A DNA stretch of 64,000 nucleotides from Escherichia coli. Its GTDB lineage: Bacteria; Pseudomonadota; Gammaproteobacteria; Enterobacterales; Enterobacteriaceae. Shown here piece after piece: positions 31,547 to 37,500 of this stretch; the first letter of the stretch is position 1, and every line of letters begins with the position of its first letter. Position numbers: made by a program. The stretch lies in the NCBI RefSeq assembly GCF_022846255.1, contig NZ_AP025682.1; one strand, written 5' to 3'.

Positions 31547-34500
31547 TCATCCTCTCCGGATAAGGCACGGGCGTAATCTGCCAGTGTTTTCTTGTTGGTT
31601 GCTGCACCATCCTCTTCCTGCAGGCTCGCCAGCAGCGCACTGAGATCCAGCTGCCAGCGGGAAATACTGATGCGCAGCGCCGCCAGCGCATAAACGAAGC
31701 AGTCGAGCGCCTCATTGCGTCGCTTTTTGCTGTCCCACAGTATTTTTTTCCTGCCATCCACCCATTTTTCGACCTGCTCTTCAGCAGTCAGCTGCTGCGC
31801 TTCGGTCAGATCAAAAATATCCGGGTTATTCGGGAAGTGAACGGCACCGGGAAGCGGTTCATCCCCTTCCGGCGTCAGTGTGAAGCGGTTATAAATCTGC
31901 TCTTTCGCGGTATCCGTACCGATTTCGGTAAGGTAAACCCCGTTTTTGTTTCGCTTACGTGGCATGCTGGCCACCGGCTTACCGTAGACGGATGCCCCTT
32001 TAATGGGGATCACCCGGAACAGCCCATGTTTTTTCGAGCGTTCATACACAATGGTCGGGTCAATCCCGCCAATATCCCAGCAGATACGGGATACCGACAT
32101 TTCTGCACCATTCCGGCGGGTATAGGTTTTATTGATGGCCTCATCCACACGCAGCAGCGTCTGTTCATCATCGTGGCGGCCCATAATAATCTGCCGGTCA
32201 ATCAGCCAGCTTTCCTCACCCGGCCCCCATCCCCATACGCGCATTTCGTAGCGATCCAGCTGGGAGTCGATACCGGCAGTCAGGTAAGCCACACGGTCAG
32301 GAACGGGCGCTGAATAATGCTCTTTCCGCTCTGCCATCACTTCAGCATCCGGACGTTCACCGATTTTCGCTTCCCATGTCTCACCGAGCGTGGTGTTCAC
32401 GAAGGTTTTACGTTTTCCCGTATCCCCTTTCGTTTTCATCCAGTCTTTGACAATCTGCACCCAGGTGGTGAACGGGCTGTACGCCGTCCAGATGTGAAAG
32501 GTCACGCTGTCCGGCGGCTCAATCTCTTCACCGGATGACGAAAACCAGAGAATGCCATCACGGGTCCAGATCCCGGTCTTTTCGCAGATATAACGGGCAT
32601 CAGTGAAGTCCAGCTCCTGCTGGCGGATGACGCAGGCATTATGTTCGCAGAGATAAAACACGCTGGCGGGATCATCCGGCGTCCATTTGAGGCCAAACGG
32701 CGTCTCTTTATCGCCAAATTTAAGGTACTGCTCCTCCCCGCAGTGCGGGCAGGCAACATGAAAACGCATAAAATGCGGGGATTCACTGGCTGCACGCTCA
32801 ATCTGACAGGTGCCTCTCACTTTGGGCGTGGAGCCACGGATGGACTTTGGCCAGACCGAGCCTTCAATACGCTTGTCACCCAAGAACGTCGGAGAGCCTT
32901 CCTGTTCAATATCATCATCAAAGGCAGCAAGTTCATCATAACCCGCCACATCCACCGACTTTTCACGGTAGTTTTTTGCCGCTTTACCGCCCAGGCACCA
33001 GAAACCACGCCCATTGGTGAAACGCTTCATGGTGAGCGTGTTATCCCGGTGCTTTTTGCCATACCACGGGGCCAGCGCCAGCAGCGACGGAATATCGCGG
33101 ATGGTCGGCTCAACGTGGGTTTTCATAAAGTTCTCGGCATCACCATCCGTCGGCAACCAGATAAGGGTGTTGCGCTGCTTATGCTCTATGAAGTAGGCAT
33201 AAACACCCAACAGCATTTTGGAATAACCGACACGGGCAGACTTCACCACATTCACCTCGCGGATGTAGTCGCTGCCCATCGCATTCATGATGGCCCGCTG
33301 AAAGGGCAGTGTTTCCCAGCGCCCTTCCTGGTATGCGGATTCTTTCGGGAGATAGTAATTGGCATCCGCCCATTCAACGGCGGTCTGTGGCTCCGGCCTG
33401 AACAGTGAGCGAAGCCCGGCGCGGACAAAATGCCGCAGCCTGTTAACCTGACTGTTCGATATATTCACTCAGCAACCCCGGTATCAGTTCATCCAGCGCG
33501 GCTGCTTTGTTCATGGCTTTGATGATATCCCGTTTCAGGAAATCAACATGTCGGTTTTCCAGTTCCGGAAAACGCCGCTGCACCGACAGGGGGATCCCGT
33601 CGAGAATACTGGCAATTTCACCTGCGATCCGCGACAGCACGAAAGTACAGAATGCAGTTTCCACCACTTCAGCGGAGTCTCTGGCATTTTTCAGCTCCTG
33701 TGCGTCGGCCTGCGCACGCGTAAGTCGATGGCGTTCGTACTCAATAGTCCCTGGCTGGAGATCTGTCTCGCTGGCCTGCCGCAGTTCTTCAACTTCCCGG
33801 CGCAGCTTTTCGTTCTCAATTTCAGCATCCCTTTCGGCATACCATTTTATGACGGCGGCAGAGTCATAAAGCACCTCATTACCCTTCCCACCGCCTCGCA
33901 GAACGGGCATTCCCTGCTCCTGCCAGTTCTGAATGGTACGGATACTCGCACCGAAAATGTCAGCCAGCTGCTTTTTGTTGACTTCCATTGTTCATTCCAC
34001 GGACAAAAACAGAGAAAGGAAACGACAGAGGCTAAAAAGCCCGTTTTCAGCACCTGTCGTTTCCTTTCTTTTCAGGGGGTGTTTTAAATAAAAACATTAG
34101 GTTACGGCGAAGAAGAACGGAAACGCCTTAAACCGGAAAATTTTCATAAATAGCGAAAACCCGCGCGCCTTCCGCCCCGTAGTCTGCCGGATTGCCGGAA
34201 AGGACCCGCCAGCCATTCGGGTTTACTTCACAATGGGATTTAATATCTGAACGACCAAAGTTGTGCGACCACGGTCGCACAGACCTGAATACACGTCCTG
34301 TTTCTTCCACCCTCGCACAGGACTGACGAGCATGAGGGACAAACCCGCGCACCATAAACGCGGTAAAAACCCGGTGTGCATCGTTTTTGATTATTCCCGC
34401 ACACTCACGCAGAAGGAATTCCCTGTCGGGCTACGGTCATGGTTAATGCGGGAATACAGCGACGATACAGCGCATGATGTGTCAGGCTTGAATACCCTTA

Positions 34501-37500
34501 TCGAATCCCGGTAATAAAAACTGTCCCTGTCTCTCCAGGCGTTTCAGCTTTGCAAGCAATTGAGGTTTTTTCGTTCTCCCCCAGCGATTGAGCAGGCGGC
34601 CAGACATACTGGCGACATCCTTCTCTTTCATATACTCCAGCATTATGGCGTTGCGTTCTGCTTCATAACTTTCGCTGTACTTACGGAGTTCTGCTGACAT
34701 CCAGTTAAAGGCATTTATATAGGCCTCTTTAACGGCGTCGGCTTTTGCGCCATTAAATCCCATAACCAGCATAACGAAGCCGCTAAAGTCCATGCGGTAG
34801 TAAGTCTGCTTCTTGTCGAAAATCCCTAAGCCATTGATTTTTTCGGCAACGCAAAAATGCGCTCTCCGGAAATCTTCTGAGCAATGACAATTTTTCAGCG
34901 CCCTCAATACGTCCGCGTGACGCTTACCAAAAGCCTTTGCGATTTGGAAGGTGTCAGTTACCGGCTCACCCTCTGCTGCGGTAACTAACTGGCGAAAGTC
35001 AAAATCAGAAGTCTCAATTAATTCACTCATGTCGTATGCCTACTCTTTGAAATGAACCTTTGCCGCACAGGAAACCAGCCCACCGAGGCTCGCCAGCACT
35101 AACTGGTATCCTCAAAGGCCCATTCCAAAGGGTCAGGTTCGGTGTTTATTGTGCGCTGCGGTGCGCGGTGAAATACCGGTACAAAAATGCCCCGCATCTG
35201 CGAGGCATTTTCCTGAAAGTCACTTGTTAAATTTCAGTGAAATTAAAATTATTTTAAGCACTGCGTCCTGATGTACTCCTGCAGGTAGTTAACCTGCGCG
35301 GTTATCCTGTCGATTCCACTTCGGAGACGGTAATAATTGAGTTCAGCATCTGCTGTAAGTCCTGGGCTTTCTCCATCGCCCATGCCGCTGGCTCCGGTCG
35401 TTGACTTTGCACAGGTGGCGGCGACTTGCAGGCGCTTACGCCCAGCAGAAACATCAGCACGGAGACTTTCAATAGTCGCGTTAGCATCAGCAAGCTCCTT
35501 TGTATATCTGGCATCGAGTTCTGCTACGTCACGTTGACGCTTCTGCATGTCAGCGATGATGGATGTGGCTTTGTCGCGCTGTTCTTTGTAGGTCATGGCG
35601 TTATCACGGTAATGATTAACAGCCCATGACAGGCAGACGATGATGCAGATAACCAGAGCGGAGATAATCGCGGTTACTCTGCTCATTGTTGCCCCCACAA
35701 ACAGACTTCACGCTCAATCTCACGGCGAGCCATCAGCCCTTTCCATTGATTACCGCCAGCGTATGTCCAACGCCGTAGCTGATCACATGCGCCTTTGATA
35801 TCGCCCTGGTTTATTTTGCGAAGAAGCGTCGATGTTCTGAAATTGCCAGCGCCCACGTTGTAAACGAATGAGTAAAGAGCGCCGCGCGTTGTTTCCGGTA
35901 TATCGACTTTGATGTACGGGTTAATTTGTCTGGCGACAGTGGCAAGGTCTTTATTCAAGAGTGCTTTGCATTCTGCTTTGGTATACGTTTTACCGAGCAT
36001 GATGTCTTTTCCTGTATGCCCGTGACATACAGTCCATACACCAACAATATCTTTGTATGGTATGTAGCTGACACCTTCCAGACCATCGTTACCACCTGGG
36101 CCAGTGATTAACACTGATGCTATAGCAATTGCTCCGCCACCAATAGCAGCAGCAACGGCTTTTCGTAATGATGGAGGCATTATTCACCTCTCGCAGCCTT
36201 TCTTCTGTCTTCTCTGATTTTGAAGTACAGATTTGTCAGATAGGTGAGAAAGCCCAACACAAGGCTTCCAAGTACCCCAATCGCAGCCCACTGTGATGGA
36301 CTAACCTGATCCAACCACTGCAAAAACCAGTATCCCGCACTACCAGCGGATGTTCCGTAGGCAATGCCAGTTGAGATTTTGTCCATTGATTTCATAGCAA
36401 CGCCTCCGCCAGTAACGGATTGCGTAGTTCTTATATTGGGAAGGGGAAAAAAGAAGGCCGCGGCATAACTATCACTGATGAGTTCAGGATAGCCAGTGGC
36501 TACGGCTCAGTTATGGTGCTGGTTAACGGACTTGAACCGCTACCCATTCGCTTACAAGGCGACTGCTCTACCATTGGAGCTAAACCAGCATATTTGGCGG
36601 GACAGCGTGGACTCGAACCACGATAAGAAGGTTAACAGCCTTCCGTAATGACCTTTATACGACTGACCCAAATAAAAAAAGCCACCGTTGCAACTTAAGA
36701 GTCACTAACGGCAGCTTATGCCAATAGTGTTGCTCATTTGCTCAATGATGTCAACACGTTCTATGCTACATGTTTAATTTTCTCTACACATTTCCGATTT
36801 TTAAACGCACTATCCAGAACCGGGTGAATCATAAACAACGAGGCATTAAGGATTTCGTCAACTTCCCGTCGACAGGTTGCGAGCGATGGTTTTTGAATGC
36901 GCCCGCCGCCACGGCATAACATCTTGCGAGGTCTTGCGACGCGATGATAGTAAGATGCAATGGCGTGCTTGGAAGAGCCATGAGCGTAGTAGCTGAGGAG
37001 GATTCCAAAGGCTTTCTTGTCAATGTACATGACGGAATCGACGACCTGAGAAATCAACATTCCATCATCATCATTACACATTGGCCTTGTCATAACTCTT
37101 CCCGGCTCTACGCTCTCCATGAACTTCGCTATTACGCTGCTCATGCGCTTTTCCAGACGACCTGAATAAACCCATGCGCCCCACAGTTCAAGCCAGCCAT
37201 TCAGCCACTCATGCTGTTCTTTGGTGAGGTTTAGTTCTCTTATGCCCACGCGCCTTCTCCCTGTACCTGAATCAATGTGAGATTTCCGCAGAACACTGCC
37301 CCAGTATCGATATACATCTGGTTGGCAAATTTGAGTGGTTTCACTGCTGGCGTATGACCAAAGATAAACGTGTCCGCGCCTTTAATTTCTTTAACGATCC
37401 CGTCTTGTGAGTTGCTGATTCGTTCGCGGTTCCAGATTACCTGCTGATGATCAACTGGCTTTCCAAATTCGTATTCGTCACAAGGATAATCGGCGTGGCA

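What the first reader, a model, noticed from the sequence alone, without database searches (positions are those of the whole stretch)
34186..35030. Rha-family regulator gene inserted between the lysis cassette and cos
Lambda has bor and a short spacer here. This prophage instead carries a 182-aa Rha-type gene on the late strand plus ~300 bp of unassigned sequence reaching cosN. Rha proteins are thought to interfere with lytic growth in some hosts, and this position is another moron site.
Basis: partly seen in the sequence, partly recalled or inferred. Interest (0 to 1): 0.2.

Follow-up and report, generated by a model that had tools for sequence, protein, structure and literature searches.

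The report
Known Rha gene beside conserved RNA-like element
The flagged gene is an ordinary, already-annotated phage Rha regulator almost identical to the one in phage P22's late operon, but the 'unassigned' DNA between it and cos holds a ~190-base element, shared by lambda and hundreds of relatives, whose paired mutations suggest a structured RNA absent from Rfam and from the papers I could search.

Summary
A 182-aa ORF (35030..34482, minus = late strand) lies between Rz and cos. It carries Pfam Phage_pRha plus ORF11CD3 domains. Its DNA is about 95% identical to the P22 Rz-rha (ORF201) block, which has the same gene order. At least 80% of the Rz-rha-cos-nu1 stretch is present in 256 of 5,426 complete E. 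coli genomes, where PGAP calls the gene "Rha family transcriptional regulator". The gene is therefore already known and ordinary.

Lambda has about 1.75 kb between bor and cos, not a short spacer. The arrangement is also a module swap rather than an insertion.

The roughly 300 "unassigned" bp can now be assigned:
- cosQ (GGGTCCT, 34201-34207);
- a cosN allele, GGGCGGAAGGCG, that differs from lambda only in the tolerant right half;
- a 29-bp palindromic indel;
- a sharply bounded 188-nt element (34289-34476, late strand).

The 188-nt element occurs in lambda, 434, 21, Stx phages and K-12 DLP12, next to many unrelated flanks. It is non-coding, has no Rfam match, and shows compensatory base-pair changes (13 pairs against 5.3 expected). 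Its predicted thermodynamic stability is unremarkable. It is a candidate new structured RNA of lambdoid late transcripts, and its function is unknown.

The parts
35249..35698 (-). Rz spanin gene, with Rz1 embedded. It is the last lysis gene and the left edge of the block that is 95% identical to P22.
   Evidence: ORF list. Megablast to P22 gene 15/Rz1 and rha covers window 35652-34579 at 95.1% identity.
35181..35213 (-). Terminator-like hairpin GGAAAAUGCCUCGC-AGAU-GCGGGGCAUUUUUGU in the Rz-rha spacer.
   Evidence: A 13-bp stem in the minimum-free-energy fold of the spacer, whose z-score is -4.1; coordinates. The sequence is identical or nearly so in P22, Br_167 and IdasGreatGrand. The simple terminator scan did not list it.
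35036..35124 (-). Structured leader upstream of rha. It is the equivalent of the P22 small RNA 'P22F', which ends 6 nt before the rha ATG.
   Evidence: The P22F sequence from PMC13397905 aligns to this stretch. It forms a long hairpin in the fold. The SD-like GAGUAGG (35045-35039) is paired in that fold.
34482..35030 (-). rha: a 182-aa Rha-family protein with an N-terminal pRha domain, a long helix and a C-terminal ORF11CD3 domain.
   Evidence: Family hits. It is 88% identical to P22 Rha and 95% to the E. coli and IdasGreatGrand alleles. Homologues across Enterobacterales are mostly 177-183 aa. AF2 model with pLDDT 76.
34289..34476 (-). Conserved 188-nt non-coding element, a candidate structured RNA carried on the late transcript. 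It is modelled with 8 helices and 44 base pairs.
   Evidence: Alignment A4 of 73 distinct sequences. Pair counts: 96.3% of cells paired; 13 pairs with changes on both sides against 5.3±1.6 in shuffles (0/500). G·U pairs outnumber A·C 298 to 44, which favours the late strand. No conserved reading frame. No Rfam hit. Covariance-model hit of 213.6 bits.
34251..34279 (.). 29-bp indel containing the palindrome GTGCGACC-AC-GGTCGCAC (34263-34280 on the + strand). It is present in this cos allele and absent in the Br_167 and IdasGreatGrand allele. Function unknown.
   Evidence: Alignments.
34201..34207 (-). cosQ (GGGTCCT), at the same distance from cosN as in lambda.
   Evidence: Alignment to the lambda right end. 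Feiss et al. 2015 (PMC4669245) report that cosQ is invariant among lambda-like phages.
34166..34177 (-). cosN cohesive-end core, GGGCGGAAGGCG, against lambda GGGCGGCGACCT. It differs at bp 7, 8, 9, 10 and 12. Nick positions are inferred by homology.
   Evidence: Alignments. The same allele occurs in E. coli CFSAN018748 and M18. Natural variation in bp 7-12 is described as common and tolerated (PMC4669245).
33443..34165 (-). cosB and nu1 (small terminase), almost identical to lambda.
   Evidence: The Nu1 translation matches lambda at 180 of 182 aligned positions, the stop included, and cosB is nearly identical.

Best explanation
The region is the right end of the late operon of a lambda-like E. 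coli prophage. Its layout in the direction of late transcription is: Rz, a terminator-like hairpin, a structured leader, rha, a 188-nt conserved element, a 29-bp palindromic indel, cosQ, cosN, then cosB and nu1.

Shown:
- rha is a bona fide, intact Rha-family gene (pRha plus ORF11CD3).
- It belongs to a block about 95% identical to the Rz-rha (ORF201) segment of phage P22, fused inside the last ~30 codons of rha to a cos-proximal module that is common in E. coli.
- The real start is the ATG at 35030. An in-frame TAG lies 4 codons upstream, homologues are typically ~180 aa, and the P22F small RNA ends 6 nt before the equivalent ATG in P22. The 201/205-aa annotations therefore extend too far upstream.

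Inferred:
- rha has no promoter match of its own, is on the late strand and follows a terminator-like hairpin. It is therefore most likely expressed only from the Q-antiterminated pR' late transcript, during lytic growth.
- The near-invariant C-terminal ORF11CD3 motif (MKEKDVASMSGRLLxRWG) probably contacts a conserved partner.
- The only phenotype known for close homologues (P22, phi80) is inhibition of phage growth in IHF-defective hosts.

The 188-nt element downstream is a separate, sharply bounded module. It is most likely a structured RNA carried on the late transcript. Its role is unknown; a processing or stability element, or a small RNA processed from the transcript, are the leading guesses.
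For: Gene identity.

P22 homology and gene order. Identity to P22 is 94.9% over rha 35030-34579 and 50.5% over the last 97 nt.

Prevalence and existing annotation: 256 of 5,426 E. coli genomes hold at least 80% of the block, annotated 'Rha family transcriptional regulator'. 525 phage records match.

Start codon: in-frame TAG; homologue lengths of 177-183 aa; P22F 3' end.

Expression inference: no promoter-like site in 33900-35400; hairpin and structured leader, z -4.1.

Element.

cos.
Against: There are no expression data for this prophage. The promoter scan is a crude consensus search, so a weak or non-sigma-70 promoter for rha cannot be excluded.

No IHF consensus site (up to 1 mismatch) was found in either spacer, so the IHF link reported for P22 and phi80 has no visible cis basis here.

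For the element, single-sequence folding energy is not better than shuffles (z -1.35). Part of the covariation is inherited by many related sequences rather than arising independently. The structure was also derived from a subset of the same sequences.
Confidence: 0.8

Rival explanations
1. Rha is an antirepressor. It would bind and inactivate the repressor of this or a co-resident prophage, as its database names suggest.
For: PHROG families 20738, 15204, 373 and 63, which match parts of the protein, are labelled 'anti-repressor'. RefSeq P22 and phage IdasGreatGrand label the gene 'anti-repressor'.
Against: Pfam finds only pRha and ORF11CD3, with no ANT/KilAC domain. The gene sits in the late operon, behind a terminator-like hairpin, which is an odd place for a switch that must act before induction. 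The names are annotation transfers, not tested functions. The only genetics I found concerns the IHF-dependent growth phenotype.
Confidence: 0.12
2. rha is a classical moron. It would be an independently transcribed accessory gene expressed from the prophage in lysogens for the host's benefit.
For: The slot holds different cargo in related phages (bor, DUF6979, rha, nothing). Lambda's bor, in the same slot, is such a gene.
Against: rha is co-oriented with the late operon, whereas bor is opposite. No promoter-like site was found. There is no terminator after the gene. The hairpin is upstream. In P22 the gene is described as part of the late operon.
Confidence: 0.1
3. The 188-nt conserved element is not a structured RNA. 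It would be a DNA-level feature: a homologous-recombination 'linker' at a module junction, a protein-binding site, or the decayed remnant of a gene.
For: It lies exactly at mosaic junctions, with at least 9 unrelated left flanks and at least 12 unrelated right flanks. Folding energy is no better than shuffles on either strand. RefSeq and GenBank annotators have placed small hypothetical ORFs over it on both strands.
Against: Thirteen of 44 pairs keep pairing through changes on both sides, against 5.3±1.6 in shuffles. The covariation score is 0.145 against at most 0.073 for slid partners. One-sided changes are mostly G·U on the late strand (298) rather than A·C (44), and a DNA palindrome would not show that bias. 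No reading frame is open in more than 22 of 73 sequences, and 1-2-nt indels are frequent. No Pfam hit and no informative PHROG hit for the ORFs: two late-strand ORFs only match PHROG 11159 (function unknown) over 27 residues.
Confidence: 0.25
4. The 60-aa ORF on the opposite strand (34332..34514), annotated by PGAP as a hypothetical protein in related genomes, is a real small gene. That would explain the conservation.
For: It is annotated in several RefSeq genomes (WP_038820430.1, WP_001205132.1). Its stop codon coincides with the left edge of the module shared with rha-less prophages.
Against: No Pfam or PHROG match. The frame is open in at most 14 of 73 homologous sequences and is broken by 1-, 2- and 10-nt indels. 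The shared left edge is better explained as a fossil of the rha 3' end.
Confidence: 0.04

Closest known systems
Phage P22 Rha (ORF201, gene rha, NP_059624)
   Same: Same family and domain pair. It is 88% identical in protein and about 95% in DNA over the first ~150 codons and the whole Rz-rha spacer. The position is the same, immediately after Rz/Rz1 on the late strand.
   Different: The last ~30 codons come from a different allele (50% DNA identity). In P22 the gene is followed by orf25/orf80/orf59c and a pac-type terminase, whereas here it is followed by a lambda-type cos. The window carries a TAG that closes the upstream extension annotated in P22.
Phage phi80 rha / the Rha phenotype (Mozola and Friedman 1985; Henthorn and Friedman 1995, as cited in PMC4936722)
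   Same: The family-defining genetics: the product blocks lambdoid phage growth in IHF-defective E. coli.
   Different: Not testable here. No IHF consensus site was found near this copy. I could not read the original papers, which are not held.
Lambda bor slot (bor, lambdap78/DUF1398, lambdap79) and K-12 DLP12 borD-ybcV-ybcW-ylcI
   Same: The same interval between Rz and cos, which carries accessory genes. The same 188-nt element is present: lambda about 46866-47039 between bor and lambdap78, and DLP12 579007-579181 between borD and ybcV.
   Different: Lambda's cargo is transcribed from the opposite strand and is about 2 kb long. Here a single late-strand gene replaces it.
Inter-cistronic RNA structures in long phage transcripts (lambda sib, T7 RNase III sites). 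This is a resemblance from memory, not tested.
   Same: A discrete structured RNA embedded in a polycistronic phage transcript between functional gene blocks.
   Different: No RNase III-type long duplex is evident, and no processing data exist. The element has a multi-helix architecture with conserved single-stranded stretches (AUAAUCAAAAAC; loop GGUGGAAGAA).
Prophage small RNAs of lambdoid phages (AgvB, AsxR, Esr41, STnc100, Pas sRNAs, IpeX, DicF)
   Same: Non-coding RNAs carried by lambdoid prophages at conserved positions.
   Different: Those described in the papers read map downstream of pR', around Q and the holin/lysozyme genes (AgvB, AsxR, Pas sRNAs). Those in Rfam gave no match here. 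They are 50-100 nt long and have terminators, whereas this element has no terminator and no conserved promoter.

Membership tests
Rha family (Pfam PF09669 / TIGR02681) | Phage_pRha domain above the curated cut-off | tested here: met
   PF09669 scores 79.0 bits against a cut-off of 29.9. TIGR02681 scores 68.2 against 45.95.
Rha family (P22/phi80 type) | C-terminal ORF11CD3 domain, as in P22 Rha | tested here: met
   PF10549 scores 82.8 bits against a cut-off of 25. The same domain pair occurs in nearly all 120 listed homologues.
Rha family (P22/phi80 type) | Late-operon position directly after Rz, as in P22 | tested here: met
Rha family (P22/phi80 type) | Rha phenotype: inhibits phage growth in himA/hip (IHF-defective) hosts | not testable with these tools
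   Genetic phenotype. Known only from the literature summary in PMC4936722.
Antirepressor (Ant/KilAC type) | ANT or KilA-C domain, or demonstrated repressor binding | tested here: not met
   Pfam lists only pRha and ORF11CD3 at E<=1. Repressor binding is not testable.
Moron (Juhala et al. 2000 sense) | Own promoter and own downstream terminator | tested here: not met
   Zero promoter-like sites in 33900-35400. The only strong hairpin with a U tail is upstream of rha. The scan is crude.
Moron (Juhala et al. 2000 sense) | Present or absent between otherwise related phages at the same site | tested here: met
   Cargo at this site is bor, DUF6979, rha or nothing.
Lambda-type cos | cosQ GGGTCCT; 12-bp cosN with a conserved left half and CG next to both nicks; cosB with a lambda-like Nu1 | tested here: met
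   The variation is confined to bp 7-12, as described for N15 and Gifsy-1. Cleavage itself was not tested.
Any Rfam 15 family (for the 188-nt element and the Rz-rha leader) | Covariance-model match | tested here: not met
   No hit at E<=1 over the element in the window or in lambda, phi24B, VT1-Sakai, S135 or DLP12. Two sub-threshold hits fall in the Rz-rha spacer: asX2, 20.6 bits against a gathering score of 70, and DUF805b, 15.7 against 35.6.
Structured non-coding RNA (generic criteria) | Compensatory base-pair changes beyond controls | tested here: met
   Thirteen pairs and 61 cells with changes on both sides, against 5.3 and 10.7 in shuffles (0/500). Slid controls are lower.
Structured non-coding RNA (generic criteria) | Folding energy below shuffled sequences | tested here: not met
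   z = -1.35; 18 of 200 shuffles fold as well.
Structured non-coding RNA (generic criteria) | Absence of a conserved reading frame | tested here: met
Structured non-coding RNA (generic criteria) | Evidence that it is transcribed or accumulates | not testable with these tools
   No expression data are available. The late strand is inferred from the G·U versus A·C asymmetry.

The most novel reading that the evidence does not exclude
The 188-nt element at 34289-34476 would be an undescribed family of structured RNA embedded in the Q-dependent late transcript of lambdoid phages. It is present in lambda itself (between bor and lambdap78), in 434, 21, Stx1/Stx2 phages, Salmonella phages and K-12 DLP12. 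It would act as a discrete cis element (processing, stability or translational control at the lysis-to-packaging boundary) or as a processed small RNA. It is most often linked to the 3' end of rha.
Probability: 0.45. Interest if true: 0.6.

Novelty: already known. Interest (0 to 1): 0.3.

Why it matters
The Rha gene itself adds nothing new. It is a routinely annotated accessory regulator in a known position, and its biochemical function is still unknown after 40 years.

Three practical points come out of the check:
- The 201/205-aa annotations of P22 ORF201 and its E. coli copies probably start too far upstream.
- The cos of this prophage is a natural cosN right-half variant paired with an essentially lambda terminase.
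- The DNA that looked like spacer is not spacer.

If the conserved element is a real structured RNA, then lambda, the best-studied phage, and most E. coli genomes (4,767 of 5,426 match the 411-bp segment holding the element and cos) carry an uncharacterised RNA module. It sits at the boundary between the lysis and packaging genes. Simple lambda or DLP12 genetics could test it.

Tried and rejected
- Protein-coding explanations for the 300 bp. Four candidate ORFs on both strands gave no Pfam hit. The only PHROG matches were 27-residue matches of two late-strand ORFs to PHROG 11159, of unknown function. The 83-aa ORF is unrelated to lambdap78. No frame is conserved. Rejected.
- Known RNA families. 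Rfam at E<=1 found only a tRNA and noise.
- Known prophage small RNAs (AgvB, AsxR, Pas, STnc100, Esr41). These lie at a different locus, downstream of pR' around Q and the holin genes.
- IHF sites near rha. None was found at up to 1 mismatch.
- Defence-system membership. No PADLOC hit.
- The original Rha papers (PMID 7768817 / PMC177009) are not held. Several literature searches returned only rhamnose, helicase or Bordetella noise.
- Thermodynamic support for the RNA element. Not significant on either strand.
- More distant members of the element. Walking out from the Salmonella S135 variant found only E. coli, Shigella and Salmonella lambdoid phages.

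
Full report
**Observation.** The window's minus strand is the late strand of a lambda-like prophage. The order is S (36395..36180), R (36180..35683), Rz/Rz1 (35698..35249), a 182-aa ORF (35030..34482), Nu1 (33988..33443), A (33468..31543), then W and the portal gene. The 182-aa ORF matches Pfam Phage_pRha (aa 25-112, E 4e-22) and ORF11CD3 (aa 121-174, E 2e-23). It also matches PHROG 518 'Rha-like transcriptional regulator' (E 4.5e-83) and TIGR02681.

**What the gene is.** Megablast shows that window 35652-34579 (Rz, the spacer, and the first ~150 codons of rha) is 95% identical to phage P22, where the order Rz/Rz1-rha (ORF201) is native. The protein is 88% identical to P22 Rha and 95% identical to alleles in E. 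coli Br_167 and phage IdasGreatGrand. Identity to P22 drops to 50% in the last 97 nt, which marks a mosaic junction inside the gene. At least 80% of the Rz-rha-cos-nu1 stretch occurs in 256 of 5,426 complete E. coli genomes, and PGAP names the gene 'Rha family transcriptional regulator'. The 20 kb around it is 97% identical to prophages of E. coli strains such as VCSW7. The gene is therefore already known.

**Start codon.** P22 and some E. coli records annotate 201-205 aa from an upstream GTG. In the window an in-frame TAG lies four codons before the ATG at 35030. Homologues across Enterobacterales are overwhelmingly 177-183 aa. A recent P22 study detected a small RNA, P22F, that covers that 'extension' and ends 6 nt before the internal ATG (PMC13397905). 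The 182-aa form is the real gene.

**Upstream control region.** The 218-nt Rz-rha spacer is 97% identical to P22 apart from a 14-nt patch before the ATG. It folds better than shuffles (z -4.1). It contains a 13-bp GC-rich hairpin followed by UUUUU (35213-35181), and then a long hairpin equivalent to P22F (35124-36). The base of that long hairpin pairs with the SD-like GAGUAGG. No sigma-70-like promoter was found between 33900 and 35400. From this I infer that rha is read only by Q-modified, terminator-resistant polymerase, as part of the late transcript, and that its translation may be modulated by the leader. Neither step is shown.

**How Rha may work.**
- An AlphaFold model built on 43 homologues (pLDDT 76) has three parts: an N-terminal beta-beta-alpha-alpha-alpha-beta-beta-alpha domain (17-90), a 40-residue helix, and two C-terminal helices.
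- Foldseek finds nothing in the PDB.
- The most conserved stretch of the family is the ORF11CD3 motif MKEKDVASMSGRLLxRWG, which suggests a conserved interaction partner.
- The only genetics I found is second-hand: P22 and phi80 Rha block phage growth in IHF-defective hosts (PMC4936722).
- No IHF consensus site occurs in either spacer.
- There is no PADLOC hit and no ANT/KilAC domain, so the 'anti-repressor' labels are unsupported.

Lambda has bor plus about 1.75 kb with two further predicted ORFs before cos, not a short spacer. The layout is a module exchange, P22-type Rz-rha joined to lambda-type cos. It is not an insertion. Rha also lacks the promoter and terminator signature of a moron. The slot is nevertheless variable: relatives carry bor, a DUF6979 gene, rha or nothing.

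**The 'unassigned' 300 bp: cos features.** Alignment with lambda and relatives places three features.
- cosQ (GGGTCCT) lies at 34201-34207.
- The cohesive-end core lies at 34166-34177 and reads GGGCGGAAGGCG, against lambda GGGCGGCGACCT. The differences are confined to bp 7, 8, 9, 10 and 12, and the CG next to each nick is intact.
- Nu1 (180 of 182 aligned positions identical, the stop included) and cosB are essentially lambda's.

Feiss et al. 2015 report that right-half cosN variation is common and tolerated and that cosQ is invariant (PMC4669245). This cos is therefore an ordinary natural allele, and it recurs in strains CFSAN018748 and M18. A 29-bp indel carrying the palindrome GTGCGACC-AC-GGTCGCAC (34251-34279) accompanies this allele and remains unexplained.

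**The 'unassigned' 300 bp: a conserved element.** The remaining ~190 nt (34289-34476) are conserved at 75-98% in 433 phage records. These include lambda, 434, 21, mEp460, Stx1 and Stx2 phages and Salmonella SPN3UB/S135. The wider 411-bp segment that holds the element and cos (34090-34500) matches 4,767 of 5,426 E. coli genomes, with a median of two places per genome.
- Position. The element sits after the lysis genes or their cargo and before at least four unrelated packaging modules.
- Boundaries. In 55 of the 136 the left neighbour is the rha stop codon plus 7 nt, including 'fossil' rha ends in prophages that now carry other cargo.
- Not coding. No frame is open in more than 22 of 73 distinct sequences, and 1-2-nt indels abound. 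The small ORFs annotated over it have no informative family match.
- No Rfam family matches it in any of six contexts. The prophage small RNAs described in the papers read (AgvB, AsxR, the Pas sRNAs) map elsewhere.

**Evidence for structure.** A model with 8 helices and 44 pairs was derived from the window, twelve phage sequences and inspection. It was then counted on 73 distinct sequences (A4).
- 96.3% of cells form standard pairs.
- 13 pairs have changes on both sides, against 5.3±1.6 in column shuffles (0 of 500 reach 13).
- The covariation score is 0.145, against 0.097 for shuffles and at most 0.073 for slid partners.
- Helices P2, P4 and P5 each show several apparently independent compensatory variants. 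For P5 the arms are GTCCTGT/ACAGGAC, TCCGGT/ACCGGA and TCTCGAT/ATCGAGA. For P4 they are CCGCG/CGCGG, CTGTG/CGCAG, CACG/CGTG and CAGC/GCTG.
- One-sided changes are mostly G·U on the late strand (298 cells) rather than A·C (44). As a result 96.3% of cells pair on the late strand and 88.2% on the opposite strand. That pattern argues for RNA, and for the late strand.

Against the model, single-sequence folding energy is unremarkable (z -1.35). The sequences are related, so the counts overstate independent events. The structure was partly derived from the same data. A covariance model built from the alignment finds full-length copies in several places:
- lambda at about 46866-47039, between bor and lambdap78;
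- K-12 DLP12 at 579007-579181, between borD and ybcV, where nothing is annotated;
- phi24B and VT1-Sakai;
- a fragment in Qin.

It finds none in P22. I put the probability that this is a genuine structured RNA at about 0.7, and at about 0.45 that it is also undescribed. Its function is open. The leading guesses are an inter-cistronic processing or stability element, or a small RNA processed from the late transcript.

**Verdict.** The finding as written is correct and ordinary (already known).

Noticed in passing
window 34289-34476 (minus strand); also lambda NC_001416 ~46866-47039 and K-12 NC_000913.3 579007-579181: A sharply bounded 188-nt non-coding element is conserved across lambdoid phages that have different packaging modules. 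It shows compensatory base-pair changes and has no Rfam match, so it is a candidate new structured RNA.
   Followed up: yes
window 34166-34177: The cosN core is GGGCGGAAGGCG instead of lambda's GGGCGGCGACCT, differing at bp 7-10 and 12. It is paired with a Nu1 and cosB that are almost identical to lambda's. The same allele is in E. coli CFSAN018748 and M18.
   Followed up: partly
window 34251-34279: A 29-bp indel, relative to other cos-proximal alleles, carries a perfect 8+8 palindrome (GTGCGACC-AC-GGTCGCAC) between the conserved element and cosQ. It is not a terminator, and its function is unknown.
   Followed up: no
window 35036-35213 (minus strand): The Rz-rha spacer holds a strong terminator-like hairpin and a long hairpin equivalent to the P22 small RNA 'P22F' (PMC13397905). 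The spacer is at least as conserved as the flanking coding DNA, and the rha Shine-Dalgarno region is paired in the predicted fold.
   Followed up: partly
L002 (P22) 3054-3122; L001 3602-3670: The 201-aa (P22 ORF201) and 205-aa (E. coli PGAP) Rha annotations start at an upstream GTG. That extension is closed by a TAG in the window, is absent from most homologues (177-183 aa), and overlaps the P22F RNA. It is probably an over-extended start.
   Followed up: yes
L005 (E. coli CFSAN018748) ~2487-2520; L006 (M18), same position: Prophages that carry a DUF6979 gene instead of rha still keep the last ~35 nt of rha (…LPGFDKGIQA*) in front of the conserved element. This is a fossil of an earlier rha-element linkage.
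   Followed up: partly
window 34332-34514 (plus strand): A 60-aa ORF antisense to the rha 3' end and to the element is annotated by PGAP as a hypothetical protein in relatives (WP_038820430.1, WP_001205132.1). Its frame is not conserved, so it is probably a spurious call.
   Followed up: yes
window 36514-36669 (minus strand): Two tRNA genes, Asn(GTT) and Thr(TGT), lie just upstream of the holin gene on the late strand. tRNA genes are common in lambdoid prophages.
   Followed up: no
L138 (K-12 Qin) 3461-3510: A 50-nt fragment of the conserved element abuts the 3' end of ydfO (DUF1398). In lambda and DLP12 the full element likewise abuts the DUF1398 gene (lambdap78, ybcV) on the opposite strand.
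   Followed up: no
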